A stretch of DNA of 64,000 nt. It comes from Candidatus Lindowbacteria bacterium RIFCSPLOWO2_12_FULL_62_27. Lineage in GTDB: Bacteria > Lindowbacteria > 2-12-FULL-62-27. The notes under the pieces are model-generated. The model was given only the letters and a program-made list of their open reading frames with translations. It ran no database searches and had not been told where the DNA came from. The stretch lies in the NCBI GenBank assembly GCA_001784175.1, contig MFPR01000040.1, forward strand, positions 44,955-108,954, in the 5' to 3' direction. This document shows positions 6,570 to 59,799 of this stretch, in pieces (positions within the stretch are counted from its first letter, which is position 1; every line of letters starts with the position of its first letter). The position numbers and the translations under genes are program-made.

Positions 6570-6591
6570 GGGACGAAAGCGCTTTCGTCCC
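6570..6591. promoter_or_regulatory. cre-like palindromic operator (GGGAC GAAAGCGCTTTC GTCCC), 36 nt upstream of ATG 6627 and downstream of a TTGACA -35-like box at 6535-6540
   Basis: Perfect 22-nt palindrome. The core GAAAGCGCTTTC matches the G(T/A)AAGC|GCTT(A/T)C half-site pattern seen at six other positions. Confidence 0.55.
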
Positions 6592-6626
6592 GGCGGTGCG
6601 ACGGGTGACAGGGGGGTTTCTCGGAC

Positions 6627-7637
6627 ATGCGCGGTCTTGCGGGACGGTTGGCGGGTTGTCTTCTTGCATCCATCGGGGTTCTCTCGTTCCCGCCCTCTCT
6701 GGCCCGCGCCGACACGCTGACCATCGCGCTCGTCAAGCTTGGCGACGTGTCCGGCTATCGCGGGGCCTGGCGGATCGACCGGCAGATCACGCGGCTTTTG
6801 TCCGAAGCGCTTCTCAGCCTGAACGGCGTGTCCCTCGCGCCGGCCTCGGACGTGTCGGAGGCGGCGCGGCAAACGATCGGCATGCCGGACGAGTCCCTTG
6901 ATCCGAAAAAACTTCTGATGATCGGCCGCGCGGTCGGCGCGGACCTGGCGGTGGGCGGGACGGTCGATAAACTGTCTCTCGAGGGCCAGGGCGTCGTCAG
7001 CTACCGGGCCGGCGGGTATGAGCGGTTCGTGGGCGAGGTGGACCTGACCCTGACGGTGATCGAGACGCGCGGCGGTTCAGCGCTTGTCAACAAGGAAAAG
7101 ATATCGATCTCCCTCGCCGACGACGATGTCGGCATCGCGATCCTGCAGGGACCCGGCAACCGGCCGACCGAGGAAACATTGTACAAAATCTGGAACGCGC
7201 CCGTCGAATCCGACCTCGTCCAGGGATCGATCATCGGCCGCGCAATGGCGCAGGCGGCGATGGAGGCGTCCTCCCGCGTCGCTCGCGCCATCTCCGGCGT
7301 GCCCGCCGGCCGGGAGGGCCGCGTGGTCCGCGTGCGCGGGCGGGACATCTATATCAGCCTGGGGTCGGAGGACGATGTGCGCGAGGGCGACGTCGTCATG
7401 ATCTGGGAGAACGTGGAGGCGGTCCGCGACCCGAAAACCTCCGTGATGCTGGGGTTCACCCGCGCGTCGGAGGGCGCCGAAGCCGAGGTCCGGGAAATCC
7501 GCGGCCGGAAACTCTCGATTTGCCGGACGGCGGAAGACCAGGAATTCCGCGAGGGCGACACGGTCCGCTTCCTCGGCGGGCGGCGCGCCGGCAAATGGGC
7601 GGGCGCGCGGCGCCGGCCTGTCCAGGAAACGGAATGA
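6627..7637 (+). CDS. hypothetical secreted/periplasmic protein (possible CsgG/LpoB-like fold; uncertain)
   Basis: ATG at 6627, with a G-rich Shine-Dalgarno-like stretch 9 nt upstream. Signal peptide ..LSFPPSLARA|DT. 336 aa, with no recognisable catalytic motif. Confidence 0.5.
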   Translation: MRGLAGRLAGCLLASIGVLSFPPSLARADTLTIALVKLGDVSGYRGAWRIDRQITRLLSEALLSLNGVSLAPASDVSEAARQTIGMPDESLDPKKLLMIGRAVGADLAVGGTVDKLSLEGQGVVSYRAGGYERFVGEVDLTLTVIETRGGSALVNKEKISISLADDDVGIAILQGPGNRPTEETLYKIWNAPVESDLVQGSIIGRAMAQAAMEASSRVARAISGVPAGREGRVVRVRGRDIYISLGSEDDVREGDVVMIWENVEAVRDPKTSVMLGFTRASEGAEAEVREIRGRKLSICRTAEDQEFREGDTVRFLGGRRAGKWAGARRRPVQETE

Positions 7638-10600
7638 TCCTCCTTGCCGCCGGAGCCGTGCTGCTGATGATGGAAACGGCGACTTCGGCAATCCAATTCG
7701 ACCGGCGCGCGCCCGAAGGGCTGGTCGGAAACGGCCGGTCGGTGGTGAAGGTCCGGCCGGGCGGTTATGAATTTTTTTCGGGCGGGAAAGCGTCGGGCCG
7801 CATCCGGGTTATGATCGGCGGGAAACGGCGTGAGATTGGCGCGGGGGATGTGCGGCGGTCGGAATTTTTCCCGGGCGGCGTCATCTATTCATTAAATATC
7901 GACGGCGTCGATCTCGACGTCCTGCACGGCGCGCTGAAGGAGGTCGCGTATGTCGCGGCGTTCCGCACGAGGGGTACGCCGCCGCCGGATGTTCAGATCG
8001 ATCTCGAGTCGACTGAAACGCCGGCGGTGTCTCCCTCCGGGCGATTGGACCTCTCGGGCAAGGGCGGGTTTCTTGCGGTTTCCACCGGGTCAGCGCCTCC
8101 GGCGCCCCAAGTGCCGGGGTCTCCGACGCCGGCCGATCCGTCCTATTCGACGAATTCCTGGGATGACCTGCGGGCTGCCGTTGAGGCGCCGTACCTGAAA
8201 GGATTTCAGGTCCGCACGCCGTCGCCGGCCGTCGACCGGGCAGCCCGGTTCTGCCAGTTTTTGCTGGACCTCGGATTTGACGGCCGGCTTCACGTCAGCG
8301 AACTTTTCCGCTGGCGCGACATCTGGTCGCGGGATCTCGGAACGGGTCTCGCGCCGGGCTCGCTGGTCGGCGGCCGGTTCGACGCCGCGCGCATCTCCAT
8401 CCAGTATGATCTCGCGCGATACAAAGCGGCCAACCCAAGAGGCCTGCGGATCACGGAGGACGCGTCCCAGGGCGGGTCGGCCGAAGGGACCGCGTGGCTG
8501 ACACGCGCCGTATGGCGCGATTACCTTTTGAGCGGCGACCGCGCGTTTCTCGCGGAAGCCGCCGGGACGTTGCGTCCGTGGGTGCGGGCGTGGATCGACC
8601 GGGACGCCGACGAAGACGGCCTCGTGATCGACGTCACCGAATGGATGGACCACTCGCGGTTCTTTCTCTTCCCGGACGGCGCCCTCGGGCTGTATTCGAA
8701 CGCGCTGTTCGCGGACCTCCTGGGAACGTTCTCGAAAATCGAAAAGGAACTAGGAGACGAAACCGCCGCCGCCGCCCGGCTCGATGCTTTGCGGCGGAAG
8801 ACCGCCCGCGCGATCAATGACGTTCTCTGGAACGAATCGGCCGGCGCGTACGATAATCTCTCGATCTTCGGGCGAAACGATCAGCGTCTCTCGTCGGCGG
8901 AAAACGCGCTCGCGGTGCTCGCGGGCGTCGCACCGCCCGACCGCGCCCGCCGCGCGCTCCAGACGGTGCGCGACCGGAACTGGCGCAAGGCCGGGTCCGT
9001 CACGATCGCGCCGGCGATGACGCATGTGGACGACAAGAACGACCAGAACGTCCGCGTCTGGCCGTGGTGGAACGCCGTCGAAGCCCGCGCGAGGTTCCGG
9101 ACGGGCGATACGGCGGGCGCCGTGCATCTGCTCGAAAAATGCGCGGCAACGCTGGAGGACGAACACTATCCCGGTCTCATCGAGGAACTGCTGACCCCGG
9201 AGGGCGTGACGGAAGGCGGCCACGCCTTTTTGAGCGCCGCCGGCACGTTCTTGGACGCGCTGTATGAAGGATTGCTCGGGATCGAGATTCTCGAAGCGGG
9301 TTGCGCGCGCATCCGCGTGTCGCCCCACACGCCCGACTGGAAAGCGTGGGAGGCCGCCGTGCCGCTGCCGGGCGGCGATCTCTCCGTGTCTTTCGCCGAC
9401 GGCGTTCTGCGCATCCGCGTGACCGACCCGCGGGTAAAAGTGGTGGAAGCGCCGGCGTCGGCAATTGTTGAGGGAGCGACGCGCGCTGATTTCTCTGTTT
9501 CTCCTGATCCGTCCGAATCTGTTTTCTCAGAATCCAAAATCCAAAATCCAAAATCCAAAATCTCCGACCCGAAGCCCCGCCGCGCCGCGCTCTTCTCCGA
9601 GCCCGGCATCCCGCGCTCGTCCGCCGCGGGCCTGCCCAAGCAGACCATCAACGCGGAGGCGCTCTTGACACTCGACCCCGCCCGGACGCCGGCCCTCGTG
9701 ATCGCCGGCAACGCTCTGCCGCGCCGGACGAAATCCGCCGGAGATGTGCAGAACGCGCTGGCGCGGTACCTGGACGGCGGCGGCGCGATCGTGTTTTTCG
9801 GCGCGACCATGCACGACCGCGGCACGATGGGTGAACACGGCGGCGTGATCGATTGGTACGAGCATCTCCCGCAACTGAAGTACGAGCCGCTGGCCGGCTG
9901 GCGGTTCTCGATCTCGCCGGATGGCCCGGCGGCGCCGCAGGACAAGGAGCACGGTCTGGCCAAAGGCTGGCACCGGCCGGACTTTGACGATCGCGAGTGG
10001 AAACCGATCCGCGTTCCCGGCTGGTGGGAGGACCATCTCGGCCGCGCGCAGGACGGATGGGGCTGGTATCGGACGGAGTTTCTTCTGCCCGAGTCCCGAA
10101 AAGGAAAAACGGTCATTCTGGATATTGGCCGGATCGATGATGACGACTGGATATTCGTAAACGGCGTTCCGGCCGGCTCGGACAAGGGCTGGCAGACGCG
10201 GCGGCTGTACCATCTGAAACCGGGCAGTCCGGCGCACGCGGCGCTGAACTTCGGCGGCCGAAACGTCGTGGCGGTCCAAGTCCTCGATTACGGTGGCGGA
10301 GGCGGCATGCATGCGGACCCGACAAAACTGGCGGTCGAAACGGACGAGTATTCGTGGCAGCCGATCAATCCCAAGACCGGCGTCGTCAGCGAGCAACCAG
10401 TGCGGCACGGCGTCGTGTCCTGGGGGCCGGGCGGAGACTTCTTCAATTCGTGGGAAACGTCCAGAGGCGCATTCGGATTCCGGATTGAAGGACGAAATGT
10501 CTCGTTCGATCCGGAAGGCCCTCTGAAGGGCCTCGCGCCGATCGCAATGACGGTCCATGAAGCCTTCACGGATTTCGCCGTCGCCCGGCCATGGCAATTC

Positions 10601-10780
10601 CAGCCGCTCGCCTTTACGGAAACACGCCGGCGGCTTCTTTACCCGGACAATGGCGAGCGCTACCCGTGCGCGGCCCGCGTGGTGAACACGAAAACCGGAG
10701 GTGAATTCATCCTCGTGCCTGCGTCGCTGGCGGCATCTCCGGCCGGACCTGAACTTCTGCAGAAACTCAGAATCCATTGA
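7634..10780 (+). CDS. six-hairpin (alpha/alpha)6 glycosidase-like protein (GDE_C/GH78/GH63-like region with a W-x-R-D motif) with a C-terminal GH2-N-like jelly-roll sugar-binding domain
   Basis: The ATG at 7634 overlaps the upstream stop (ATGA). N-terminal hydrophobic segment MILLAAGAVLLMM. Motif TAWLTRAVWRDYLLSGDRAF. C-terminal DFDDREWKPIRVPGWWEDHLG..GWGWYRTEF..ILDIGRIDDDDWIFVNG is the jelly-roll domain repeated across this window. It carries an in-frame PKSKIQN heptamer-repeat linker and an in-frame GSAPPAPQVPGSPTP element. Confidence 0.7.
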   Translation: MILLAAGAVLLMMETATSAIQFDRRAPEGLVGNGRSVVKVRPGGYEFFSGGKASGRIRVMIGGKRREIGAGDVRRSEFFPGGVIYSLNIDGVDLDVLHGALKEVAYVAAFRTRGTPPPDVQIDLESTETPAVSPSGRLDLSGKGGFLAVSTGSAPPAPQVPGSPTPADPSYSTNSWDDLRAAVEAPYLKGFQVRTPSPAVDRAARFCQFLLDLGFDGRLHVSELFRWRDIWSRDLGTGLAPGSLVGGRFDAARISIQYDLARYKAANPRGLRITEDASQGGSAEGTAWLTRAVWRDYLLSGDRAFLAEAAGTLRPWVRAWIDRDADEDGLVIDVTEWMDHSRFFLFPDGALGLYSNALFADLLGTFSKIEKELGDETAAAARLDALRRKTARAINDVLWNESAGAYDNLSIFGRNDQRLSSAENALAVLAGVAPPDRARRALQTVRDRNWRKAGSVTIAPAMTHVDDKNDQNVRVWPWWNAVEARARFRTGDTAGAVHLLEKCAATLEDEHYPGLIEELLTPEGVTEGGHAFLSAAGTFLDALYEGLLGIEILEAGCARIRVSPHTPDWKAWEAAVPLPGGDLSVSFADGVLRIRVTDPRVKVVEAPASAIVEGATRADFSVSPDPSESVFSESKIQNPKSKISDPKPRRAALFSEPGIPRSSAAGLPKQTINAEALLTLDPARTPALVIAGNALPRRTKSAGDVQNALARYLDGGGAIVFFGATMHDRGTMGEHGGVIDWYEHLPQLKYEPLAGWRFSISPDGPAAPQDKEHGLAKGWHRPDFDDREWKPIRVPGWWEDHLGRAQDGWGWYRTEFLLPESRKGKTVILDIGRIDDDDWIFVNGVPAGSDKGWQTRRLYHLKPGSPAHAALNFGGRNVVAVQVLDYGGGGGMHADPTKLAVETDEYSWQPINPKTGVVSEQPVRHGVVSWGPGGDFFNSWETSRGAFGFRIEGRNVSFDPEGPLKGLAPIAMTVHEAFTDFAVARPWQFQPLAFTETRRRLLYPDNGERYPCAARVVNTKTGGEFILVPASLAASPAGPELLQKLRIH
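8086..8134. repeat. second intragenic element family (CCGGGTCAGCGCCTCCGGCGCCCCAAGTGCCGGGGTCTCCGACGCCGGCC), in frame as ..GSAPPAPQVPGSPTPA..
   Basis: About 90% identical to 17636-17684. Partial copies at 14743-14764 and 27477-27504, all in the same translation frame. Confidence 0.8.
9530..9561. repeat. heptamer mini-element (CCAAAAT)x4, in frame as a ..SESKIQNPKSKIS.. linker
   Basis: aatccaaaatccaaaatccaaaatccaaaatc inside CDS 7634..10780. Confidence 0.9.
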
Positions 10781-10801
10781 AACGACAGGAGACGAATCCC
10801 T

Positions 10802-13800
10802 ATGAAAAATCTATGGCTGGTGCTTTTCATGACGTCGGTCGCTGCGGCCGTTGAGCCGGCTTCGGCAAAAACGGTTTCCGGAATCCCGGAGAGCCTCTCG
10901 GGGTACTGGTTCTACTGGTCCGACCCCGACGGGACCCTTCGGGCGACGGACATCCAGCAGAGGATGGCGCAGGGCGAGAAACGCAAGATGCTCATCCCAT
11001 CAAATTGGTCGAGGCACGATCGAGATTTACTGAATTACAACGGCGTCGTCTGGTTCGCCCGCGCGTTCAACGCCAAAAAACCACGGCTGACCGAGCGGCT
11101 CTTTCTGCAGTTTGACGGCGTCGATTACGAGGCGGACGTTTTCCTCAACGGCCGGCCGGTAGGACGGCACACCGGATATTTCGAGCCGTTTCGGATCAAC
11201 ATCACCGATACGGTCCAGGCGGGTGAGAACCTCCTGATCGTCCGCGTCAACAGCCCGAGGGACGAGGGATACGCCGACAAGAAAACTCTGATCAAGGGAA
11301 TCTTTGTTCATCACGACTGCCGCCCCGGGTCCAATTCCGGCCAGCAGAATCAGAACGAGCCCACCGGCGGCATCTGGGGAGATGTCCGGCTGGTCCGGAC
11401 GGGGCCGGTGGCGGTTGAGGGCGCGCGGATCATGACGGAACTCAAAGACGGCAAAGGCAGGATCACCGCGCGGTACCGGCTCCGCAACTACTCGGCCTCC
11501 ACGCAGTATCCGCGCCTGAATCTTTCCGTGGCCGGCAAAACCTTCGAGTCGACGCCGGTCAAGGGCCGCGCCAACGTCAAGATCAATCCCGGCGCGATGG
11601 AGGAAGCGGTCGTGACGCTGGACGTTCCCGACCCCCGCCTCTGGTGGACCTGGGACCACGGCCGGCCTGATCTCTATCGGGTCGTCGCCCAGCTCGTGTT
11701 CGAGGGCGTGGTGACGGAGACGCGCGAGGATGCGGTCGGGTTTCGGACCATCGAGTTCGACGAGAAGGCCCTCATCATGAAACTCAACGGCCGCCCCGTG
11801 TTTCACCGAGGTTCCAACTACATCGCGACGCAGTGGCTGGCCGGGTACGGCAGGGAACAGTTTCAAAAGGACATCGATCTCATGAAAGGCGCCAACCTTA
11901 ACTCGATTCGTGTCCACGCGCATGTTCTGCCCCACACGTTTTACGATCTCGCCGACGAGTCGGGCGTCCTCGTCTGGGCCGATTTCGCGCTCATCTGGGG
12001 ATACGACCCCTCCGAATCCTTCGCGCGCGATGCGCTCCGGCAGTACCGCGCGTTCATCGACGGCTGGTTTCACCATCCGTCCATCTGGCTCTGGTGCGCG
12101 CACAACGAAGGCAGCGCCAACGATCCGCTGAACATCCGGCTGGTCGAAATGGCCCGCAGTCTCGACCCCACGCGCGTGCACCTTAAAAACTCCGGCAAGT
12201 GGCCGCCCGGCCCGGGCGGCTGGGACGAACACGAGTATGCGGGGTGGTATGGGGGAAACTATTTGGAATTCGCGGACAAGCAGCATCAGTTCGTCACCGA
12301 ATACGGCGCCCAGGCTGCGCCGGCGGGCTTCGAAAAAATTCTCGCCTCGGGCCACCGCTGGCCGCCGGATCTGGACGACTGGCGTTACCATGATTTCCAG
12401 CTGACTGAAAATCTCCGGAACCTCGGCCCGCTGGAACTTTTCAACAGCGTCGCGGATTTTGTCGAAACCAGCCAGAAATACCAGTACGACCTGCTGAAAT
12501 TCTCGACAGAGGCGTATCGCCGGACAAAGTATCGCCCGCTCGGTGGCATCTACCACTTCATGTTCACCGAATGCTGGCCCGCCATGACCTGGGCGGTCGT
12601 CGATCACGAGCGCGCGCCCAAGCTCGGCTATCACGCGCTGCGCGACGCCATGGCGCCTGTGATTGTTTCTCTGGAAGTTCGCCGGCGCGAGGTTGCGCCG
12701 GGCGAAACGATTGATATCCCGGTCTGGGTCGTGTCCGACCTCGACGAACCCCTGAAGAACTGGCGCGTCCGGTTCGGCGTAGAGGGCGGCGAAGCGCAGA
12801 CATCGGAAGTCAGCTTGGGCGCGGACGCGGCCATGCAGGTCGCCGTTCTCAAAGTGACGGCGCCTGAAACGCCCGGCACGTCCGTTCGAATTTTCTCCGA
12901 ACTGTTTGACTCCGAATCCAAAATCCAAAATCCAAAATCCAAAATCTCAATGTCCGAGTGGGGTTTCGTCGTAAAGAGCGATCCCTTTCGGCTCGGCCAC
13001 TGGACCTTCCGCACCGGCGACGACATGGCTTGGGCGAAGGGCGACGCGGCGCCGGAGGGATTCAAGCCCATCAAGGTTCCCGGCAACTGGGAAAACGACG
13101 GGTATCCGGATTACGACGGATACGGCTGGTACCGCGCGACATTCGTCGTGCCGCCAGCGCACAAGGGAGAACTGCAACTCATGCTGGGGCCCGTCGACGA
13201 CGTGGACGAATTGTACGTCAACGGCGAGTTCGTGGGCCGGACGGGCCGGTTCCCGCCGAATTACGAGACGGCCTGGACCGCGGAACGCGCGTACATGATT
13301 CCGGAAAAATTGTTGCGGAAGGACCGCCCAAACGTGATCGCGATCCGCGTCTATGATTCTACCGGCGGCGGCGGGCCTTACAAGGGTCCCGTCAAACTGA
13401 TCGTTCCGGTCGGAGTCGATCTTGCGTCCGACCGGTGGCGGCTGAAACACGGGGACGATCCGGCGTGGAGCGATCCGGCCTTCAACGACAAGGATTGGAA
13501 ACGCGTCCGCGTGCCGCAGACGTGGGAGGGTACGCTGGGGGAAGTCGACGGATTTGGGTGGTATCGGTTGAAATTTGATGTCCCCCCCTCCGCGCTGCCG
13601 GCGGGCCCTCTGACGCTGACCATCGGCGCGGTCGATGACGTCGATGCGACGTATCTGAACGGCAAAAAAATCGGCCAGACCGGCGAGTTCCCGCCGTCGA
13701 CGGGCGGCGGCGCCACATGGACCACGATGCGGAGATACTTTTTGCCGAGAGACCTTTTGCGCGCGAAGGACAACGTCCTCGCGGTGCGCGTCTACGACGG

Positions 13801-14415: not shown

Positions 14416-14431
14416 AAAACATGTGCGCCAT

Positions 14432-14543: not shown

Positions 14544-14561
14544 GGGACACAGTTGCGAAAC

Positions 14562-17867: not shown

Positions 17868-17870
17868 ATC

Positions 17871-31227: not shown

Positions 31228-31257
31228 TCACCGAACGGCGGAACTAAACAGCATAAT

Positions 31258-48523: not shown

Positions 48524-48568
48524 CCCCATATGCGGCCCCCGTATGCGGCCCCGTATGCCCCGGCCCGT

Positions 48569-52900: not shown

Positions 52901-54009
52901 ATTTCCCGAGCCTCCGGAAAGCCGCGGATTTCATCATTCAGATGCGGAATCAGCGAAAGACCGACGAATACAAAAACGGCGGGCCCGAAAAGCGGATGCT
53001 GTACGGGCTGGTGCCGGAATCGATCAGCCACGAAGGTTATTCGGCCAAGCCGGCCCATTCGCACTGGGACAATTTCTTTTCGCTGAAGGGCCTGAAGGAC
53101 GCCGCGACGATCTGCGAGATTCTCGGGGAATCCGACATGGCCGCGAGCTACCGGCGGGAGGTCGACGATTACCGGGCGTGCCTGTACGACTCGATCCGCC
53201 GATCGATGGAATTTTTCAAGACCGATTTCATTCCGGGCGCGGCCGATCTCGGAGACTTTGACGCGACGTCGACGTCGATCGGTGTTTTCCCCTGCGGCGA
53301 GCTTGGCCACATTCCGCAGGAGGCGTTGATACGCACATTCGACAAATACTACGCCGATCTCGAAAAGCGCCTGATCCCGGGAAACAACTGGGGCGAGGCC
53401 TACACGCCGTATGAAATCCGAAGCTGCCGGACGTTCATGATCATGGGGCAGAAGGATCGCGCGGCCGTCATGTTCGACTTTTTCTTCAACGACTGCCGCC
53501 CGCGCGCGTGGAACCACTGGGCCGAGGTCGTCTGGCGCCTTCCGGAGACGCCGCGGTTCATCGGCGACATGCCGCACACGTGGATCGGGTCGGACTACAT
53601 GAACACGGTCCGGAGCATGTTCGTGTATGAGCAGGAGGAGGACCGCTCATTGATTTTGGGCGCCGGGATTTTCGAGGATTGGCTGGACGGCGGGGAGGAA
53701 GTCGGCATCGAACGGGCGCCGACGTACTGGGGATCGGTGAACTTCTCCATGAAGCGCGCCGGCGATCAGACGCTCCTCGTGCGGGTCTGGGGGGACGCTG
53801 CGCCGCCAGGGAAGATCTACGTCCGCCCGCCGCTCAAGGCGCCGATCCGGTCGGTGAAGATCGACCAAACGCCGGCTGGTGAGGTGGCGTATGAGCCGCC
53901 GCGTACGGATTCAAAGGATTGTGCGTCGTGTCCGAAGGGAAGCGGGACGTGGGCGTCAGCCGGGATCCGGGTGGATCAACTGCCGGCGGATATCCAGATC
54001 AATTATTAA
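49978..54009 (+). CDS. secreted protein with three N-terminal F5/8 type C domains and a C-terminal six-hairpin (alpha/alpha)6 glycosidase-like domain (GH15-like W-x-R-D motif)
   Basis: The GTG at 49978 overlaps the upstream stop (GTGA). Three discoidin repeats (..RWSSKFEDKQWLEIDLG.., ..RWSSLFEDGQWLELDLG.., ..AWSSGPSDSAWIMCDLG..). ..SYLRSWIRDGAMTSSAIL.. motif in the C-terminal barrel. Confidence 0.7.
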   Translation: MIAFLRSACIGILIWWSCVSECVHAQVTATASSEDNAELAADRAVDGNVQTRWSSKFEDKQWLEIDLGEARDISGLYIFWEAAYAKEYDVQVSTDRADWSTVHSTRDGRGGTDKLFFSGRPVRYVKIDCLKRGTDWGNSIYEVQFRSAEPAAAGGAGGMRLLEDFESTDGWAEIKSQGAEFRLSTERGPEDKALGLNFEFPSPLGYVVAGKDVDLSLPEDYKLSFLVKGEGPPNTIEFKLMDEAGNTYWKKFEEFEFPPDWKEISVRKKQVVFAWGPSGGGSIRDVRRIEFGVSCGQGGKGRLLIDKLSITDVSASKTRFSPSVTASTSEKDEFSAARAVDGDRGTRWSSLFEDGQWLELDLGEVREFVGLTIHWEAAHAKEYDVSISTDRESWTRVYTTDASEGGVADLYFKKRTARYIRIDCRKRATGWGNSIWEVELKGPEEEVRLSASSSDDLAENALDGDLTTAWSSGPSDSAWIMCDLGRPRDIGAVFISWSEDFARSYDVYFSRDLAQWDRRFSSRRGNGGRDRLVFKDLEARYVMIHGQEGAGGRGIGVREIEVKGSEYSGDRNTFYEIAAEEAPRGFYPKYFSKQQSYWTVVGVSEDKEEALINEEGAFEVGREQFSVEPFVYVNDRLITWADVTASQSLEKDYLPIPSVQWTHPEVGLTVQLFAHGPPGGSSMYAGYRVSNPTEERLQGKLFLAIRPFQVNPPWQTLNQKGGVAIISSIEYGGGAVSVNGGKKVIPLVRPAGFGAVSSASGDVTDYLQNGRVPPEGSVTDGDALASGALEFPFDLGAGESAWVYLAVPFHDRMPAGIGDAGPAASPNMEVDRARELYEKRLAETAGWWDDRLSRVTFKVPEKAQKFVNALKSNLAYIFINRDGYRIQPGSRSYLRSWIRDGAMTSSAILRMGNIQEVREYLSWYAPNLFEDGRVPCVVDDRGADGTPENDSNGEFIYGFLQYYYFTQDKAFLREHFPSLRKAADFIIQMRNQRKTDEYKNGGPEKRMLYGLVPESISHEGYSAKPAHSHWDNFFSLKGLKDAATICEILGESDMAASYRREVDDYRACLYDSIRRSMEFFKTDFIPGAADLGDFDATSTSIGVFPCGELGHIPQEALIRTFDKYYADLEKRLIPGNNWGEAYTPYEIRSCRTFMIMGQKDRAAVMFDFFFNDCRPRAWNHWAEVVWRLPETPRFIGDMPHTWIGSDYMNTVRSMFVYEQEEDRSLILGAGIFEDWLDGGEEVGIERAPTYWGSVNFSMKRAGDQTLLVRVWGDAAPPGKIYVRPPLKAPIRSVKIDQTPAGEVAYEPPRTDSKDCASCPKGSGTWASAGIRVDQLPADIQINY

Positions 54010-56552
54010 TGTTCCGGCGATTCTTCCCGATCGGTATGGTCCTGTTTTCGATCGTTTTTCCGCGCACCGACCTCCCGGCGGCACCGGCCGGTGTTACCCC
54101 CAGCGTGGCGGCCTCCAGTTACCGCAATCCGAAAGTCGACGTCGAATCCCGCGTCTCCGATCTTCTGGCGCGCATGACACTCGAGGAAAAAGTCAGCCTG
54201 CTTGCCGGAAGCGGGCGCGAGAACGGATTCAACACGCGAGCCATCGAACGGCTCGGCATCCCGGAACTCAAGATGACGGACGGACCGCAGGGAGTTCGAT
54301 GGGAGAGCGCGGTGGCCTTCCCGTCCGGAATCGCCATGGCTTCCACGTGGGACCCAGGTCTCGTCCGGCGTCTCGGAGTTGCGCTCGCGGAGGAGACGAA
54401 AGGCCGCGGTCGGCATGTCCTTCTCGGGCCGTGCGTCAACATTCACAGGCTTCCCCTCGGCGGGCGGAACTTCGAGAGTTTCGGAGAGGACCCGTATCTT
54501 GCGGCGCGGATTGCCGTGGGATACATCGGTGGCGTGCAGAGCAAGGGCGTCGTTGCCACCGTCAAGCACTTTGCGTGCAACAATCAGGAACATTCCCGCG
54601 GGGAGGTCGACGTCACCCTCTCCGAACGCGCGCTTCACGAAATTTATTTTCCCGCGTTCCGGGCGTCGATTGAGGAAGCCGGATGCTGGGCCGTCATGTC
54701 CGCATACAACAAGGTCAACACATTCTGGTGCGCGGAGAATGAATATCTCCTGCATCAGACGCTCAAGATGCGCTGGAAGTTCCGCGGCCTCGTCATGTCC
54801 GACTGGGGCGGCGTGCACAGCACCGCCCCGACGCTGAACGCCGGACTCGACATCGAAATGCCGGCCGGCCGAAACCTCGACCACAAGGTCATCGACGAAA
54901 TACGTAATGGCGTCATCGCCGCGTCGGCTGTCGACGACGCCGTTCGGCGGACGCTCCGCGTGATCTTTTCAATCGGCCTCTTCGATCAGCCCATCGAATC
55001 GGACAATTCGCAGGTCAACAGCAAGGCGCACCGTGAAATTGCCCGGCGCGTGGCGGAGGACGGGCTCGTGCTTCTCAAGAACGACGGCGCGGCGCTGCCG
55101 CTGGAGGCCGGCGCGGTGGAACGTATCGCAGTCATCGGCCCGAACGCCGCGCAACTTCGGTTTCACGGCGGCGGAAGCGGCCATGCCGAGCCTGTGCAGA
55201 CGGTTTCACCCCTGGACGGCATCCGGGCGCTGGCCGGGCGCAAGACGGAGGTCATCTATGCTCCAGGGACGATGATGGAAAACGAAATCGATCCGATCGA
55301 ACCGGAACATCTGTCACCGCCGGCCGGCGGCGGCGCGCGCGGGATTCGAGCGGAGTACTTCGCCAACCAGACTATGGAGGGGAAACCCGCGCTCGTCCGC
55401 ATCGATCCGCAAATCAACTTCAACTGGGGCGGCGGATCGCCTGCGCCGGAGATTCCCGTCGATCATTTTTCCGCGCGCTGGGCCGGAAATCTGACGCCGA
55501 CCGAGAGCGGCGAGTATGAGATTGTCGCGAGCAGTGACGACGGGATTCGCGTGTTTCTCGACGGGAAAAAAATTCTCGACATCTGGCGCGACCACGCGGA
55601 AGAGGCCGCGCGCGCCCGTGTTTCCCTCACGGCCGGCCGGCGATATGCGGTACGGGTGGAATACTACGAGAACGGGGGCGGCGCGATTGCGCGTCTGGGA
55701 TGGAACCGGATCGAGGATGTCACGAACCGTCTTGAAGCGGCGGTGCAGGCCGCAAAGGATGCGGACGTTGCGATTGTCTTCGCGGGTCTCACCGAACGCC
55801 ACGAGACGGAGGGCAGGGACCGCGACACGCTCGCTCTACCCGCGGGCCAGGACGAACTCATTGTTGCGGTTTCACGGGCGAATCCAAAGACGATCGTTGT
55901 CCTGAACAACGGCGGGCCGCTTCTGATGGACCGCTGGCTCGACAAGGCCGCCGCCGTGGTTGAGGCGTGGTATCCGGGGCAGGAGGGCGGCGCGGCCGTC
56001 GCCCATGTTCTTTTCGGCCGTGTCAATCCGTCAGGGAAACTCCCGATGACGATGCCGAGAAGCTGGGAATCGTCGCCGGCCTATGGAAATTATCCCGGAG
56101 AAAACCTGCGCGTGGAATACGCCGAAGGCATCTACGTCGGCTACCGATACTTCGACGCAAAACATCTCGAACCTCTTTTCCCCTTCGGCCATGGCCTCTC
56201 CTACACGTCCTTCGAGTACAGCAATCTGACAGTCGCGCCCGGCAAGACGGTGAAGGTTTCCTTCGATATTAAGAACACGGGGAAGCGTGAAGGCGCGGAG
56301 GTGGCGCAGGTCTATGTTGCCGAGGATTCGCCGCGCATCGACCGGCCGCCGAAGGAACTCAAGGCATTTCGAAAAATCGCTCTCGCGCCCGGGAAGAAGA
56401 CGCGCGTAGAAATCGATCTGGGGCGTGACGCGTTTTCCTATTTCGATCCCGTCCAGAGGGACTGGGACGCCGCAGCGGGAATGTTCACGATTCTCGTAGG
56501 CAGTTCGTCCAAAGACATCCGGCTTCAACAGAAAGTCGAGTACATGCCCTGA
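54009..56552 (+). CDS. GH3-family beta-glucosidase with an inserted PA14 domain
   Basis: TAATG junction with the upstream gene. Signal peptide. GH3 motifs KHFACNNQEHSR and VMSDWGG (nucleophile D). PA14 segment ..GIRAEYFANQTMEGKPALVRIDPQINFNWGG..YEIVASSDDGIRVFLDGKKILD.. C-terminal FN3-like domain. Confidence 0.9.
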   Translation: MFRRFFPIGMVLFSIVFPRTDLPAAPAGVTPSVAASSYRNPKVDVESRVSDLLARMTLEEKVSLLAGSGRENGFNTRAIERLGIPELKMTDGPQGVRWESAVAFPSGIAMASTWDPGLVRRLGVALAEETKGRGRHVLLGPCVNIHRLPLGGRNFESFGEDPYLAARIAVGYIGGVQSKGVVATVKHFACNNQEHSRGEVDVTLSERALHEIYFPAFRASIEEAGCWAVMSAYNKVNTFWCAENEYLLHQTLKMRWKFRGLVMSDWGGVHSTAPTLNAGLDIEMPAGRNLDHKVIDEIRNGVIAASAVDDAVRRTLRVIFSIGLFDQPIESDNSQVNSKAHREIARRVAEDGLVLLKNDGAALPLEAGAVERIAVIGPNAAQLRFHGGGSGHAEPVQTVSPLDGIRALAGRKTEVIYAPGTMMENEIDPIEPEHLSPPAGGGARGIRAEYFANQTMEGKPALVRIDPQINFNWGGGSPAPEIPVDHFSARWAGNLTPTESGEYEIVASSDDGIRVFLDGKKILDIWRDHAEEAARARVSLTAGRRYAVRVEYYENGGGAIARLGWNRIEDVTNRLEAAVQAAKDADVAIVFAGLTERHETEGRDRDTLALPAGQDELIVAVSRANPKTIVVLNNGGPLLMDRWLDKAAAVVEAWYPGQEGGAAVAHVLFGRVNPSGKLPMTMPRSWESSPAYGNYPGENLRVEYAEGIYVGYRYFDAKHLEPLFPFGHGLSYTSFEYSNLTVAPGKTVKVSFDIKNTGKREGAEVAQVYVAEDSPRIDRPPKELKAFRKIALAPGKKTRVEIDLGRDAFSYFDPVQRDWDAAAGMFTILVGSSSKDIRLQQKVEYMP

Positions 56553-56560
56553 TCCGGGGA

Positions 56561-58396
56561 ATGGAAGGGTGGAAAGGAGCCGGGATATGGCTTCCCGCAG
56601 CCTTTGGCGTGCTCCTCGGAAGTCTGCCGGCGCTCGCGCTGGACATTCATGACGGCTGGGGATTTCAGACCGGAGACAGGAATGAATGGGCGTCGCCGGC
56701 GTTTGACGATTCGGCATGGCGGAAAATCCGGGGCGGCCGGTCGTGGGAGGATCAGGGACATGCCGGATATGACGGCGTGGCCTGGTATCGGAAATGGATC
56801 AGCATTCCGAAGGAATGGTCCGGCCAGGACTTGATTCTGGAACTGGGTCCGATCGATGACGCCGACGTCACGTACGTCAACGGGCGAATCGTCGGCTCCT
56901 TCGGAGGATTCCCTCCTGCCTTCCGAAGCGCCTGGACAGCGGCGCGTGTCTATCGGATTCGGGCCGACCATGTACGGCCCGGCCGGCGGAACCTCATCGC
57001 CATCCGAGTGTACGACGGCGGGGGCGGCGGCGGTCTGCATGGATGGCCATATCTCATCAGTCCCGATTCCGAATATCAGCAGAAACGAAAGTTGGCGGAC
57101 CGGCCTCACCCGTCGCTGATAATTCCTTCGAATGTTCAATCCATACTGGAACAATCCGAACCTGAACTGAAAGGCGCCGATCTGGACGATGATCGTTCGT
57201 TTGTCATCCGCCGCGCGGTCGCCGCCATTCGCGCGGCGACGGTCCGGGAAGGCGCCGCGGCCGGACAGATTCGCGCCAGCCTGCCGCCCGGCGAATACCG
57301 GGACACGGCATGGGCGCGCGACATGGGCTACGCCCTGTTGGGCCTTTTGGATGCGGCGAGTTTGGGCGCGCAGGGCGTGCTTGACGACGTCCGGCGAGGA
57401 CTGGATTTCTTCATGCGGGCCGAAGCCGGCACGTACAAACAGTACGTCTGGAACGGTCTGGACCGGGGGGTCGGCAAGCCGTATCGCATTTCGGTCTGTC
57501 GCTATTCCGCCGGTGGTCGCGAGTATTCGGACATGGATGCGTCTCGTGGCCCGAACATCGAGCTGGACGGATTCGGTCTGGCGCTCAGCGTGTTTGAACG
57601 ATACGTCGAACAATCGGGGGATCGGACGTTTTTGCGCAAGCACTGGCCTGTGATTTCCAAGGAAATCGCTGACGTGTTGATCCATACGACGGATCAGGCA
57701 ACGGGATTGATCCGGCCCGAATCCGGAATCTGGGAGGTTCATCTGCCCGGCATGCGTTTTCTGCACACAAATGTGCTGGCTGCCGCCGGGCTTTTTTCCG
57801 CCGCGCGGATGGCGGCCGCGCTGAATGACGGGGCCTCCCGGGAGAAATACCAGCGCGCGGCCGAGTTGTTGGCGGAATCCATTCGCTCGCGGCTGGTTGA
57901 ACCCAACACGGGCGTCCTCGCGGGAAATCTGGAACATTTGAATGAAGGCCGGGCGCTGGAGGAATACGCGGGCTCGGCCGGCCCGGGCGTGGCGGACGCA
58001 ATCCAGTTTGAAGTTTTCGATACCGGCGACGCTGTGGTTCAGGCGTCGCTGGATCGCATCGCCGCCGAACTTCGGTGGGCCGGCGCCTACGCGCGTCTGG
58101 ACGGCGGCGGGACGGTAGAGGAATTTTCGTTTACGTCGTTGCGCCTGGCTGCGGCGTTCCTTCGGGCCGGCAGAAAAAAGGAGGGCGAGGCTCTCTTGAA
58201 CTGGGCGGAGCAGAACGCCCGCCAAAACCAGGGCTTGTTCGCTGAAGTCTACACGCGCGATGCGGGCGATTACGCCGGATCGTCGCCCTTGGTCGGGATG
58301 GGCGCCGGCGCCTATTTGACGGCCGTCGCGCAGCTTGTTCCGGGCGTGTCCTTCGGGCCAACCTCTGACCACGAAATTGAATTGATTGTGAAGTAA
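56561..58396 (+). CDS. secreted protein: N-terminal jelly-roll sugar-binding domain and a six-hairpin (alpha/alpha)6 glycosidase-like domain (GH15-like)
   Basis: Signal peptide. ..WRKIRGGRSWEDQGHAGYDGVAWYRKWISIP..ILELGPIDDADVTYVNG..IAIRVYDGGGGGG. ..YRDTAWARDMGYALLGL.. motif. Confidence 0.7.
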   Translation: MEGWKGAGIWLPAAFGVLLGSLPALALDIHDGWGFQTGDRNEWASPAFDDSAWRKIRGGRSWEDQGHAGYDGVAWYRKWISIPKEWSGQDLILELGPIDDADVTYVNGRIVGSFGGFPPAFRSAWTAARVYRIRADHVRPGRRNLIAIRVYDGGGGGGLHGWPYLISPDSEYQQKRKLADRPHPSLIIPSNVQSILEQSEPELKGADLDDDRSFVIRRAVAAIRAATVREGAAAGQIRASLPPGEYRDTAWARDMGYALLGLLDAASLGAQGVLDDVRRGLDFFMRAEAGTYKQYVWNGLDRGVGKPYRISVCRYSAGGREYSDMDASRGPNIELDGFGLALSVFERYVEQSGDRTFLRKHWPVISKEIADVLIHTTDQATGLIRPESGIWEVHLPGMRFLHTNVLAAAGLFSAARMAAALNDGASREKYQRAAELLAESIRSRLVEPNTGVLAGNLEHLNEGRALEEYAGSAGPGVADAIQFEVFDTGDAVVQASLDRIAAELRWAGAYARLDGGGTVEEFSFTSLRLAAAFLRAGRKKEGEALLNWAEQNARQNQGLFAEVYTRDAGDYAGSSPLVGMGAGAYLTAVAQLVPGVSFGPTSDHEIELIVK

Positions 58397-59097: not shown

Positions 59098-59541
59098 GGG
59101 TATCCTCCTTATAGTCAGATTGGTCAGATTGTCCTCGAGGACCAGGCATTTGTCAAGCGCAACCCCGGGTCCCTTTCGGGGCCCAGGCAGGGGGTTGGGG
59201 GGGCCTTTCCATTACCCACAATTTATCACCACGGAGGCACAGAGACACTGAGAATATAATTTTCGCATCTGCTCAGGCTGATTATGTGGGAATTTACCAC
59301 GAATAAGAGATGTTCGAAGTTTGAACCATAAAAAAATTCGTGTCCATTCGTGCTCAGCATTCGTGGAAATTGTTAATGTCCCCTCTATCGACCCGGTTAC
59401 ATAATGTAAGCGATTTCACTTGACAACCGGGTACCGACGTGGGACACTGTCGTGGTGGGTGGTCAGCGGGAATGCCTGCCAAAGAGACTTCTGCACAATT
59501 GAATCGCCGGATGGAAGGAAGGCTATTTTTTTACAGTGCGC

Positions 59542-59555
59542 AGGAAGCGCTTACA
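59542..59555. promoter_or_regulatory. cre-like operator AGGAAGCGCTTACA in the first (orphan) copy of a duplicated promoter/leader module
   Basis: Part of the module 59385-59600, which is paralogous to 59646-59815. Confidence 0.5.
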
Positions 59556-59785
59556 TCATTTTGGGGAGCAGGCTGTAGGTGTCATCTGGATCGGCAAAAC
59601 TCTTCACATGAAGGGTGCAATAACATGGATATATATCTGTATATAATTACAAAAGTATTTCCTTGACAAACCATATACCGACTAGGACAATCATGGGGTT
59701 AGGATAGTGGGACCGTGAGGGTCCGGCGTAATTTGGGGCGCTTGGAGAGAGGCAGGGGGTTGGTTGTTATTTTTACAGGCGTTGT

Positions 59786-59799
59786 TGGAAGCGCTTACA
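59786..59799. promoter_or_regulatory. cre-like operator TGGAAGCGCTTACA, 20 nt upstream of ATG 59819
   Basis: 13 of 14 matches to TGTAAGCGCTTACA. TTGACA -35-like box at 59663-59668. Confidence 0.55.

What the first reader, a model, noticed from the sequence alone, without database searches (positions are those of the whole stretch)
6570..59799. cre-like palindromic operator (G(T/A)AAGC|GCTT(A/T)C) in front of at least six genes: a LacI-type regulon
Sites sit at 6570-6591 (perfect 22-nt palindrome), 31407-31420 and 31449-31462, 36981-36996, 44535-44548, 59542-59555 and 59786-59799. Most lie 20-120 nt upstream of start codons of secreted glycan-active proteins, and several sit just downstream of TTGACA -35-like boxes. 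The 14-mer TGTAAGCGCTTACA is the textbook catabolite-responsive-element / LacI-family half-site arrangement. A LacI-family regulator gene (27750..28799) lies in the middle of the locus.
Basis: partly seen in the sequence, partly recalled or inferred. Interest (0 to 1): 0.7.

Follow-up and report, generated by a model that had tools for sequence, protein, structure and literature searches.

The report
LacI-type operator sites in glucan locus
A short palindromic DNA word recurs nine times at the starts of sugar-polymer-degrading gene blocks in an uncultivated groundwater bacterium; it is most likely the docking site of a LacI-type repressor encoded in the same locus, which is an ordinary kind of bacterial gene switch.

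Summary
An 18-bp palindrome (consensus G-w-T-G-W-A-A-G-C-G-C-T-T-W-C-A-w-C) occurs 9 times in 64 kb, against about 0.35 expected. All nine copies lie within -400 to +55 nt of the start codons of five transcription units, and seven lie in the 4.4% of the window that is non-coding. Two more exist, at 44671 and 59405. Two sites (36981, 44671) sit inside the first codons of genes.

The locus comes from a Candidatus Lindowbacteria genome and is a beta-1,2-glucan-type degradation cluster (GH144 x6, GH94, GH3, GH2, GH5).

A LacI-family operator is the best reading:
- The central CG is invariant.
- The two half-sites vary independently.
- Eight of the nine sites form no RNA hairpin above background.
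- The flanks are not conserved.
- A 47%-identical ortholog of the local LacI has a perfect TGTAAGCGCTTACA on its own promoter.
- The motif recurs in two other GH144 loci but is almost absent from 714 kb of unrelated LacI loci.

It is not demonstrably cre/CcpA.

One target promoter looks sigma-54-type. It carries a -24/-12 box bracketed by two operators, it is conserved in a 67%-identical ortholog, and it pairs with an MshEN-domain sigma-54 activator gene that follows the LacI gene.

Verdict: a new member of a known kind, of modest interest. Binding has not been tested.

The parts
6570..6591 (.). Operator-like site 1: GGGACGAAAGCGCTTTCGTCCC, a perfect 22-nt palindrome (14-mer core 6574-6587). 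It lies 64 nt after the stop of GH144 gene 3747-6506 and 35 nt before ATG 6627.
   Evidence: It is the only site that also folds into a strong RNA hairpin (-19.8 kcal/mol, z -3.3), and the only one with C/G at the outer T/A positions. TTGACA at 6535-6540 and TAAGTT at 6557-6562 lie upstream, read directly from the sequence.
31406..31419 (.). Operator-like site 2: AGTAAGCGCTTTCA, 5 nt upstream of the sigma-54-like -24/-12 box.
   Evidence: A counterpart TGAAACCGCTTTCA lies 15 nt upstream of the -24/-12 box in ortholog locus L105.
31425..31440 (+). Sigma-54-type promoter-like element GGGCATACCCTTTGCA (GG-N10-GC), 54 nt before ATG 31495.
   Evidence: 2 mismatches to TGGCAC-N5-TTGCW, not significant on its own (15 hits against 18.9 expected in the window). 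The orthologous position in L105 carries TGGAACGCCATTTGCA, the only hit with at most 1 mismatch in 22.5 kb, 58 nt before the orthologous GH144 start.
31449..31462 (.). Operator-like site 3: AGTAAGCGCTTACA, 8 nt downstream of the -12 element and 32 nt before ATG 31495. Its centre is 43 bp from the centre of site 2.
36981..36994 (.). Operator-like site 4: AGAAAGCGCTTACA, inside the GH5 gene (start 36941, codons 14-18 of the signal peptide).
   Evidence: The start codon at 36941 has a GGAGG ribosome-binding site and matches the database gene call. TTGGCA-N16-TACAAT overlaps the site.
44535..44548 (.). Operator-like site 5: TGTAAACGCTTACA, 118 nt before ATG 44667 and 15 nt after TTGACT (44514-44519).
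   Evidence: An identical 14-mer occurs in L006 at 19579.
44671..44684 (.). Operator-like site 6 (not in the finding): a perfect TGAAAGCGCTTTCA over codons 2-6 of gene 44667-48329. Its centre is 136 bp from the centre of site 5.
   Evidence: It has the highest PWM score, 27.9 bits.
59405..59418 (.). Operator-like site 7 (not in the finding): TGTAAGCGATTTCA, abutting TTGACA (59420-25)-N17-GACACT.
59542..59555 (.). Operator-like site 8: AGGAAGCGCTTACA, preceded by TATTTTTTTACAG. It belongs to copy A of a diverged 244-bp tandem duplication.
59786..59799 (.). Operator-like site 9: TGGAAGCGCTTACA, 19 nt before ATG 59819 of a giant malectin-GH144-CBM30 protein. It belongs to copy B of the duplication.
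   Evidence: The start at 59819 agrees with the database gene call.
27750..28799 (+). LacI-family regulator gene (349 aa): HTH_LacI plus Peripla_BP_3, with no tetramerisation tail. It is the candidate binder of the sites.
   Evidence: Orthologs of 47-64% identity.
28824..30356 (+). Sigma-54 enhancer-binding protein gene (510 aa): MshEN-type N-domain, AAA+ domain with GAFTGA, and HTH_8. It starts 24 nt after LacI and is probably co-transcribed with it.
   Evidence: The LacI-bEBP pair is conserved in L005 and L009. In L010 the gene after LacI overlaps its stop in the same way, but that gene is cut by the contig end and has no domain call. A 68%-identical ortholog lies directly upstream of the GH144 ortholog in L105.
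31257..31274 (.). TGCACATATAATTGTGCA, an NtrC-UAS-like inverted repeat about 160 nt upstream of the -24/-12 box. It is a candidate activator binding site.
   Evidence: the only perfect match in the window. A block ATGCACAaATAATTGcaCA is conserved in L105.
6627..18407 (+). Putative regulated unit 1: unknown secreted protein, (alpha/alpha)6 GH, GH2, small discoidin protein, GH144, GH2_N-like protein.
   Evidence: Pfam; gene calls. That it is one operon is inferred from short or overlapping gene junctions.
31495..44433 (+). Putative regulated unit 2: malectin-GH144, two unknown proteins, GH5, malectin-GH144, thioredoxin-like/CBM48 protein.
   Evidence: Pfam; gene calls.
44667..58396 (+). Putative regulated unit 3: discoidin/Ig protein, thioredoxin-like protein, large discoidin protein, GH3, GH15-like protein.
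   Evidence: Pfam; gene calls.
59819..64000 (+). Putative regulated unit 4: the 5' part of a 6209-aa malectin-GH144-CBM30 protein, which runs off the window.

Best explanation
The nine palindromes are DNA operators for a dimeric LacI/GalR-family repressor. The most likely binder is the one encoded at 27750-28799.

Inferred mechanism: without inducer, the repressor sits on or just downstream of the promoters of four or five transcription units. Together these hold about 18 genes for secreted beta-1,2-glucan-type degradation (GH144, GH2, GH3, GH5 and others). The repressor blocks initiation, or acts as a roadblock at the two sites inside early coding sequence. A breakdown product, plausibly sophorose or beta-1,2-gluco-oligosaccharides, would release it.

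One unit, the GH144 gene at 31495, appears to use a sigma-54 promoter. Two operators bracket its -24/-12 box. It would be activated by the MshEN-domain enhancer-binding protein whose gene immediately follows the LacI gene (24-nt gap, same strand; co-transcription is inferred), so that unit would have two inputs.

Shown here: the sites, their enrichment and placement, the gene content, and the cross-species recurrence. Inferred: which protein binds, the direction of control, and the inducer.
For: - Enrichment and clean separation of the nine sites.
- Seven of nine sites lie in the 4.4% of the window that is non-coding. All lie within -400 to +55 of five unit starts.
- The form is that of a LacI-family operator: an even palindrome, an invariant central CG and a TGnAAGC half-site. 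The W position differs between the two halves in 4 of 9 sites, so the constraint acts on the sequence of each half and not on base pairing.
- Only site 6570 folds better than shuffled sequence. The flanks carry 0.27 bit per position against 1.09 in the core, so this is not a mobile repeat.
- There is a LacI-family gene in cis.
- Its ortholog P0005 (47% identity, same SIAT(I/V)SR recognition helix) has TTGACA-N17-TAATAT followed by a perfect TGTAAGCGCTTACA 22 nt before its own start codon. Chance expectation is 0.01 in that contig.
- A separate GH144+GH94+ABC-transporter locus, L006, has a LacI with the NIY..A.EA.VSIAT.SR..NN helix-turn-helix and four sites with at most 1 mismatch, all intergenic (0.00 expected). 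One lies in the LacI/GH35 divergent region.
- The GH144 ortholog locus L105 (67% identity) has two identical TGAAACCGCTTTCA sites in the two intergenic regions that flank the gene (0.00 expected).
- Control: 80 unrelated LacI-family loci (714 kb) hold only 2 hits with at most 1 mismatch.
- A further 15 kb of the same genome outside the glycan locus holds no site.
- Sigma-54 part: the -24/-12 box, a UAS-like block and an adjacent 68%-identical bEBP gene are conserved between the window and L105. GAFTGA is present in the bEBP.
Against: - There are no binding or expression data.
- Only one genome fragment (about 79 kb) could be scanned, so genome-wide specificity is untested. Other LacI paralogs in the genome could be the real binder.
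- The LacI gene has no site in front of its own operon in this window.
- Its closest ortholog contigs hold no site with at most 2 mismatches. L005 (12 kb) and L009 have none with up to 3 mismatches, and L010 has only one 3-mismatch match.
- Locus L105 has the sites but no LacI gene within the 22.5 kb fetched.
- The SIATVSR recognition helix is common in the family, so it does not single out this protein.
- Promoter positions are not established.
- The window's -24/-12 match is not significant on its own.
- Site 6570 may instead, or also, be an RNA stem-loop.
Confidence: 0.72

Rival explanations
1. The sites are LacI-family operators, but the binder is another LacI paralog or a CcpA-like global catabolite regulator encoded elsewhere in the genome. 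In that case the motif would report carbon catabolite repression rather than substrate induction.
For: - All nine sites have the conserved core of the cre consensus TGWAANCGNTNWCA, which is cited in PMC10864463. Four match it in full; five miss only an outer position.
- cre sites are known to lie inside early coding regions and next to sigma-54 promoters.
- The recognition helix is generic.
- The local LacI lacks an autoregulatory site here, and three ortholog contigs lack the motif.
Against: - The local protein fails the CcpA equivalog model (136.8 against 442 bits).
- The sites are confined to the glycan locus in the 79 kb scanned.
- The 47% ortholog carries a perfect site on its own promoter.
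- The motif is nearly absent from 714 kb around unrelated LacI genes.
Confidence: 0.18
2. The palindromes act as RNA hairpins in 5' leaders or between cistrons, as stabilisers, attenuators or terminators, and not as protein operators on DNA.
For: Site 6570 is a 22-nt perfect palindrome between two same-strand genes. It folds at -19.8 kcal/mol, z -3.3.
Against: - The other eight sites do not fold into the palindrome hairpin better than shuffles (z +0.94 to -2.1).
- Four of nine sites have non-complementary bases at the W pair, while the sequence of each half is conserved.
- There are no U-tracts and no terminator-scan hits.
- Site 59405 lies upstream of the nearest promoter-like box.
Confidence: 0.04
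3. The sites are bound by the neighbouring sigma-54 enhancer-binding protein (through its HTH_8 domain) as upstream activating sequences, and not by LacI.
For: The bEBP gene is adjacent and conserved next to GH144 in L105. bEBPs bind inverted repeats, and two sites flank a -24/-12 box.
Against: - The sites lie 5 and 8 nt from the -24/-12 box, too close for an enhancer (established knowledge of bEBP looping).
- The other seven sites have no -24/-12 box nearby.
- L006 and L007 have the motif with a LacI gene and no bEBP gene.
- A distinct TGCACA-type repeat is conserved at the expected UAS distance.
Confidence: 0.04
4. The recurrence is a by-product of coding or composition (AAA GCG CTT = Lys-Ala-Leu in signal peptides) or of a dispersed repeat or duplication.
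For: Two sites encode ..KAL.. in N-terminal signal peptides. Sites 59542 and 59786 belong to a 244-bp tandem duplication.
Against: - Seven sites are non-coding.
- Dinucleotide shuffles give 0.02-0.35 expected.
- The flanks are unrelated apart from the one duplication. Within that diverged duplication the operator is the best-conserved block.
Confidence: 0.02

Closest known systems
LacI/GalR-family local sugar repressors and their operators (for example GalR with GTGTAAACGATTCCAC, CelR/CebR of actinomycetes with TGGGAGCGCTCCCA, PurR). Operator sequences are quoted from my own knowledge of the literature.
   Same: - A 14-18 bp even palindrome with a central CG.
- Several operators per locus, on or just downstream of promoters, sometimes in early coding sequence.
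- The regulator gene lies inside the catabolic locus.
- The protein has an HTH_LacI domain plus a periplasmic-binding-protein fold.
   Different: - The host is an uncultivated candidate phylum, Lindowbacteria.
- The target set is a beta-1,2-glucan-type (GH144/GH94) cluster, and my paper searches found no described regulator for such a cluster.
- The regulator lies at the tail of another operon and is followed by a sigma-54 activator gene.
- It has no operator in front of its own operon.
cre/CcpA catabolite repression of Firmicutes, including cre sites next to sigma-54 promoters (B. thuringiensis cel operon, PMC10864463; B. subtilis lev operon)
   Same: - The motif fits TGWAANCGNTNWCA.
- In the cel operon a cre (TGAAAGCGTTAACA) lies just upstream of the -24/-12 box, between it and the UAS sites, and binds the LacI-family protein CcpA. 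This is the same layout as 31257 (UAS-like), 31406 (operator) and 31425 (-24/-12).
   Different: - The protein is not a CcpA equivalog.
- No HPr/HPrK evidence is available.
- The sites appear local to one locus.
- A second operator lies downstream of the -12 element.
- The activator has an MshEN-type N-domain rather than PRD/EIIA domains.
NtrC/NifA-type sigma-54 enhancer-binding proteins
   Same: An AAA+ domain with GAFTGA and a C-terminal HTH_8. A TGCACA-type inverted repeat lies about 160 nt upstream of a GG-N10-GC box.
   Different: - The N-terminal sensory domain is an MshEN/T2SSE_N-type module.
- It contains sequences resembling the c-di-GMP-binding motif (my reading; not tested).
- It scores below every NCBIfam equivalog cut-off.

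Membership tests
LacI/GalR-family operator and regulator pair | Regulator with an N-terminal LacI-type HTH and a periplasmic-binding-protein-like effector domain | tested here: met
   PF00356 (5.3e1 bits, E 2e-14), PF13377 and PF00532 on 27750-28799. The best PDB relatives are LacI, CelR-like 5ysz, CcpA and PurR.
LacI/GalR-family operator and regulator pair | Operator is an even palindrome of about 14-20 bp with a central CG and TGnAAnC-type half-sites | tested here: met
   The nine sites have an invariant central CG and invariant G4, A6, A7, T12, T13 and C15 in the 18-mer alignment.
LacI/GalR-family operator and regulator pair | Operators placed at promoters or early transcribed regions of the regulated genes, more often than chance | tested here: met
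   Seven of nine sites lie in the 4.4% non-coding DNA, P about 1e-8. All lie within -400 to +55 of unit starts. Exact promoter positions are not established.
LacI/GalR-family operator and regulator pair | The regulator physically binds the operator and is released by a small-molecule effector | not testable with these tools
   Needs EMSA, DAP-seq or ITC. Indirect support comes from the perfect site on the promoter of ortholog P0005.
LacI/GalR-family operator and regulator pair | Motif and regulator co-occur in related genomes | tested here: inconclusive
   Positive in L007 (47% ortholog) and L006 (32%, same helix). No site with at most 2 mismatches on the short contigs L005, L009 and L010 (59-64% orthologs). 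L105 has the sites, but no LacI gene lies in the 22.5 kb fetched.
cre / CcpA carbon catabolite repression | Site matches TGWAANCGNTNWCA | tested here: met
   Four sites (44535, 44671, 59405, 59786) match the degenerate consensus in full. The other five miss only an outer position: 31406, 31449, 36981 and 59542 at position 1, and 6574 at positions 1 and 14. The consensus is as cited in PMC10864463.
cre / CcpA carbon catabolite repression | Binder is a CcpA ortholog | tested here: not met
   TIGR01481 ccpA scores 136.8 bits against a cut-off of 442.35.
cre / CcpA carbon catabolite repression | HPr(Ser-P)/HPr kinase co-repressor system and a genome-wide spread of sites over many catabolic operons | not testable with these tools
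   Only about 79 kb of this genome was reachable. Within it the sites are restricted to the glycan locus.
Sigma-54-dependent promoter with enhancer-binding protein | GG-N10-GC (-24/-12) element at a suitable distance upstream of the gene | tested here: met
   GGGCATACCCTTTGCA at 31425-31440, 54 nt before the ATG. Ortholog locus L105 has TGGAACGCCATTTGCA 58 nt before its ATG, the only hit with at most 1 mismatch in that locus. The window hit alone is not significant.
Sigma-54-dependent promoter with enhancer-binding protein | A bEBP with an AAA+ GAFTGA loop encoded nearby, and a UAS about 100-200 nt upstream | tested here: met
   PF00158 at 239 bits and GAFTGA in the sequence. TGCACA-N6-TGTGCA at 31257-31274 is conserved as a block in L105. 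The bEBP ortholog (68% identity) is adjacent to GH144 in L105.
Sigma-54-dependent promoter with enhancer-binding protein | rpoN present in the genome; transcription start mapped downstream of the -12 element | not tested
No transcript data are available.

The most novel reading that the evidence does not exclude
In the candidate phylum Lindowbacteria, a LacI-type repressor and an MshEN-domain sigma-54 activator (possibly sensing c-di-GMP) are adjacent, apparently co-transcribed genes. They would act together as a two-input switch. The repressor brackets the -24/-12 box of a sigma-54 promoter for a secreted beta-1,2-glucanase and also gates several sigma-70-type promoters of the same degradation regulon. 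Polysaccharide foraging would then be tied both to substrate availability and to a second-messenger or lifestyle signal.
Probability: 0.3. Interest if true: 0.5.

Novelty: new member of a known kind. Interest (0 to 1): 0.3.

Why it matters
If confirmed, this would be the first regulatory model for any gene set in Candidatus Lindowbacteria. I found no paper on regulation in this phylum. It would also give a candidate sensor and operator pair for beta-1,2-glucan and sophoro-oligosaccharide utilisation, a pathway whose enzymes (GH144, GH94) are recently characterised and for which I found no described regulation.

In practice, the 18-bp motif can be used to delimit the regulon in related MAGs. 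The LacI protein is a candidate biosensor for beta-1,2-gluco-oligosaccharides. The mechanism itself, a LacI-family repressor on palindromic operators including one next to a sigma-54 promoter, has clear precedents, so the conceptual gain is small.

Tried and rejected
1. Chance or codon bias (AAA GCG CTT = KAL): rejected by shuffles and by the non-coding placement of seven sites.
2. RNA hairpin: only site 6570 folds well.
3. Dispersed repeat or MITE: the flanks are not conserved. Only 59542 and 59786 are related, through a 244-bp tandem duplication.
4. CcpA membership: the equivalog score is not met.
5. bEBP as the binder: the spacing is wrong and the motif occurs in loci without a bEBP gene.
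6. Phylogenetic footprinting with same-species contigs (L011-L019, L101-L104): all are 100% identical in the regulatory regions, so they are uninformative.
7. Metagenome scan with the single LacI sequence found nothing. The scan with the ortholog alignment returned only generic relatives of 29-39% identity, which I used as a background set.
8. Sigma-70 promoter and terminator scans were inconclusive for most regions.
9. Other sigma-54 boxes near the remaining sites: none convincing (and inspection).
10. Literature search for the exact 14-mer found nothing.
11. GH144 orthologs L107 and L108 (55% identity) have no such motif. L106 has a different LacI-type palindrome, TGCAAACGATTGCA. The operator is therefore not universal to GH144 genes.
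12. A PDB alignment to test whether the heptamer arrays are insertions did not reach the relevant region.

Full report
**Observation**

The motif is real and far above chance.
- GWAAGCGCTTWC occurs exactly 5 times, against 0.02 expected.
- TGWAAGCGCTTWCA with up to 2 mismatches occurs 9 times, against 0.35 expected.
- The core AAGCGCTT occurs 9 times against 0.74 expected, and 7 of those lie in the sites.
- A symmetrised PWM built from the nine 18-mers gives the consensus G-w-T-G-W-A-A-G-C-G-C-T-T-W-C-A-w-C. It separates the nine sites (21.8-27.9 bits) from one intermediate hit (36314, 15.6 bits). Everything else scores 7.7 bits or less. This test is partly circular.

Two further sites exist: 44671-44684, a perfect palindrome and the best scorer, and 59405-59418.

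**Where the sites lie**

I took gene calls from the public contigs that carry this DNA, together with Pfam results. On that basis about 2.8 kb (4.4%) of the window is non-coding. Seven of the nine sites fall there, with a binomial P of about 1e-8.

| Site | Position relative to genes |
|---|---|
| 6574 | 39 nt before ATG 6627 |
| 31406 and 31449 | 75 and 32 nt before ATG 31495 |
| 36981 | codons 14-18 of the GH5 gene (start 36941, strong GGAGG ribosome-binding site) |
| 44535 | 118 nt before ATG 44667 |
| 44671 | codons 2-6 of the gene at 44667 |
| 59405, 59542, 59786 | 400, 263 and 19 nt before ATG 59819 |

Five unit starts are therefore fronted, not six.

The units contain GH144 (beta-1,2-glucanase family) genes, GH2, GH3, GH5, a GH15-like gene, an (alpha/alpha)6 hydrolase and many discoidin/malectin/CBM proteins with signal peptides. 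A GH94 phosphorylase gene and one GH144 gene (240-6506) have no site in their 90-nt divergent intergenic region. The operon that ends with the LacI gene has none either.

**Source**

The LacI protein and the surrounding DNA are identical to contigs from aquifer metagenomes and to NCBI MAG GCA_001782795.1, contig MFPQ01000037.1. A paralog in the window is named as Candidatus Lindowbacteria bacterium RIFCSPLOWO2_12_FULL. The nearest genome-collection relative of the LacI is another Lindowbacteria MAG.

**What the sites are**

Four properties point to a dimeric DNA-binding protein of the LacI/GalR type.
- The sites are even palindromes with an invariant central CG and conserved TG-AAGC half-sites.
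- The variable W position differs between the two halves in four sites (31406, 36981, 59542, 59786). The conservation therefore acts on half-site sequence and not on pairing.
- As RNA, eight of the nine do not fold better than shuffled sequence. Only 6570 does, because its palindrome extends to 22 nt (-19.8 kcal/mol, z -3.3).
- The flanks carry almost no information (0.27 against 1.09 bit per position). The exception is the 59.4-59.8 kb region. That region is a diverged 244-bp tandem duplication, and its best-conserved blocks are a TTGACA-N17-GACA(C/A)T box, a TATTTTT..ACAG box and the operator.

**Which protein binds**

The window encodes one LacI-family protein (27750-28799). It has no tetramerisation tail and is not a CcpA, PurR, GalR or RbsR equivalog.

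Its ortholog group is small: four relatives at 47-64% identity, after which identity drops to 37%. The 47% ortholog (L007) is the first gene of its operon. Its promoter reads TTGACA-N17-TAATAT-t-A-TGTAAGCGCTTACA, with the ATG 22 nt after the site. This is a textbook autoregulated arrangement, with 0.01 matches expected by chance in that contig.

An unrelated 45%-GC bacterium (L006) has a GH144 + GH94 + GH35 + ABC-transporter locus with a LacI of 32% identity. Its helix-turn-helix is nearly the same (NIYKIAREAEVSIATVSRVLNN against NIYDVAEEAGVSIATISRAMNN). Four sites with at most 1 mismatch lie in its intergenic regions, including the LacI/GH35 divergent promoter.

As a control, 80 loci around generic LacI-family genes (714 kb) hold only two hits with at most 1 mismatch. 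Another 15 kb of the same Lindowbacteria genome outside the glycan locus holds none.

Several points weaken the assignment:
- Three ortholog contigs (L005, L009, L010) show no site with at most 2 mismatches; L010 has one 3-mismatch match. They are short, and there, as here, the LacI gene lies mid-operon.
- The recognition helix is common in the family.
- The rest of the genome could not be searched for paralogs.

**A sigma-54 promoter among the targets**

Between sites 31406 and 31449 lies GGGCATACCCTTTGCA (31425-31440). This is a GG-N10-GC element with 2 mismatches to TGGCAC-N5-TTGCW. On its own it is not significant (15 hits against 18.9 expected).

The gene immediately after LacI (24-nt gap) encodes a sigma-54 enhancer-binding protein with GAFTGA and HTH_8, and an N-terminal MshEN-type domain.

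In locus L105 the GH144 ortholog (67% identity) is directly preceded by the ortholog of this activator (68% identity). The intergenic region there carries, in the same order:
- a conserved ATGCACA-ATAATTG-CA block, matching the window's TGCACATATAATTGTGCA at 31257-31274;
- a LacI-type palindrome, TGAAACCGCTTTCA;
- TGGAACGCCATTTGCA, the only sigma-54 match with at most 1 mismatch in 22.5 kb, 58 nt before the start codon.

The operator-to-GG distance differs by 10 bp between the two species, which is one helical turn. The LacI-activator gene pair is also conserved in L005 and L009, in other genomic contexts. L010 shows the same overlapping junction, but its downstream gene is truncated and has no domain call.

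I therefore consider it likely, at roughly 0.6, that the 31495 unit is sigma-54-dependent and that the palindromes bracket its core promoter. This layout has a direct precedent. In the B. thuringiensis cel operon a cre (TGAAAGCGTTAACA) lies just upstream of the -24/-12 box and binds CcpA, a LacI-family protein, while a sigma-54 activator binds UAS sites further upstream (PMC10864463).

The other sites have no -24/-12 box nearby. They lie next to TTGACA/TTGACT/TTTACA/TTGGCA-like hexamers. In four cases the right half-site (..TTACAAT/TACAAG/TACAAC/TACATC) could itself serve as a -10 element. That reading rests on inspection only, and the promoter scan tool was inconclusive.

**Mechanism proposed**

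- *Shown:* repeated operators at unit starts, a LacI-family gene in cis, recurrence of motif plus LacI plus GH144 in other lineages, and conserved sigma-54 promoter architecture for one unit.
- *Inferred:* the LacI dimer represses by occluding promoters. It would act as a roadblock at 36981 and 44671, by analogy with cre and PurR sites in early coding sequence (my own knowledge). A beta-1,2-glucan breakdown product would relieve repression. The unregulated GH144/GH94 pair at 240-6506 may supply that signal. The activator would add a second input at one promoter.

**Comparison with what is known, and novelty**

This behaves like, and by sequence criteria belongs to, the LacI/GalR operator-repressor class. 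It resembles cre in sequence but fails the CcpA test. Three things are new: the host (I found no paper on regulation in Lindowbacteria), the target pathway (I found no described regulator of GH144/GH94 clusters), and the pairing with an MshEN-domain sigma-54 activator. I rate it a new member of a known kind, with interest 0.3.

**Side observation**

The window holds eight 32-33-nt arrays of the heptamer GATTTTG.
- Four are in forward orientation, directly behind start codons.
- Four are in reverse orientation inside hydrolase genes, and are read through as ESKIQNPKSKIS-like peptides.
- They are identical in nine independent assemblies.
- They are absent from every other locus I fetched, and the repeat sequence was not found in the paper library.

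I could not explain them. They may deserve a separate look.

Noticed in passing
window 9531-9562, 12915-12946, 15981-16021, 47509-47541 (reverse orientation); 13904-13936, 26463-26494, 31505-31537, 34117-34144 (forward orientation): There are eight arrays of about 4.6 copies of the heptamer GATTTTG, five of them perfect. The forward arrays lie right behind start codons (three overlap the previous stop as ATGA or GTGA) and encode 'RFWILDFGFWI'-type N-terminal extensions. The reverse arrays lie inside GH genes and are read through as 'ESKIQNPKSKIS'. The unit has no stop codon in any of the six frames. The arrays are identical in nine assemblies of the same population. They are absent from all related and unrelated loci fetched, and the repeat sequence was not found in the paper library.
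   Followed up: partly
window 28824-30356; L005 2045-3601; L009 2470-4005; L105 8243-9736: A sigma-54 activator with an N-terminal MshEN/T2SSE_N-type domain. Residues 7-60 resemble the tandem c-di-GMP-binding motif, and GAFTGA is present. Its gene is conserved directly downstream of the LacI ortholog in L005 and L009, and the junction in L010 looks the same (downstream gene truncated, no domain call). In L105 it lies directly upstream of GH144. This may be a second-messenger input to glycan degradation.
   Followed up: partly
window 31085-31200: A long inverted repeat made of CACGAAG units (CCACGAAGGAGCACGAAGGGGCACGAAG ... CTTCGTGTCAGCTTCGTGTCCCTTCGTGG). It lies in the unusually long (748-nt), low-GC intergenic region upstream of the GH144 promoter.
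   Followed up: no
window 31360-31375: A perfect 16-nt palindrome, GAAACCTTAAGGTTTC, between the UAS-like repeat and the first operator. It is unique in the window and is not conserved in L105.
   Followed up: partly
window 59395-59560 and 59640-59805: A diverged 244-bp tandem duplication of a promoter-plus-operator module upstream of the giant GH144 protein gene. Conserved islands are TTGACAA.CC...TACCGAC..GGACA, TATTTTT..ACAG and GGAAGCGCTTACA.
   Followed up: yes
window 58439-59097 (- strand): A Phd/YefM antitoxin and PIN (VapC) toxin pair inserted between two glycan-degradation units.
   Followed up: no
window 59819-64000 and beyond (L103): The last ORF is the start of a 6209-aa protein (malectin-GH144-CBM30...). 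In another assembly of the same population (L104) the region is called as three genes of 878, 480 and 7641 aa. This reflects either strain or assembly differences.
   Followed up: no
window 18000-20000: A low-GC stretch (51% against 61% for the window). It holds a 277-aa ORF with GC3 of 0.44 and no Pfam hit, followed by a hairpin (CCCTCTCCCGTCCTATGCGGGAGAGGG) at about 19385-19415. It may be foreign DNA.
   Followed up: no
L106 9909-9930 (Elusimicrobia MAG JAFGLF010000032.1): A GH144 ortholog (58% identity) sits next to a different LacI-family gene, with a different LacI-type palindrome (TGCAAACGATTGCA) after a TTGACA promoter. This suggests LacI regulators were recruited to GH144 genes independently.
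   Followed up: partly
L006 6069-7436: A PilZ-GYF-CBM11 protein encoded inside the GH144/GH94 locus of an unrelated bacterium. This is another hint of a link between c-di-GMP and beta-1,2-glucan loci.
   Followed up: no
window 45163-45742: A 294-bp tandem repeat (2 copies, 88% identical) inside gene 44667-48329, corresponding to repeated Ig-like domains.
   Followed up: no
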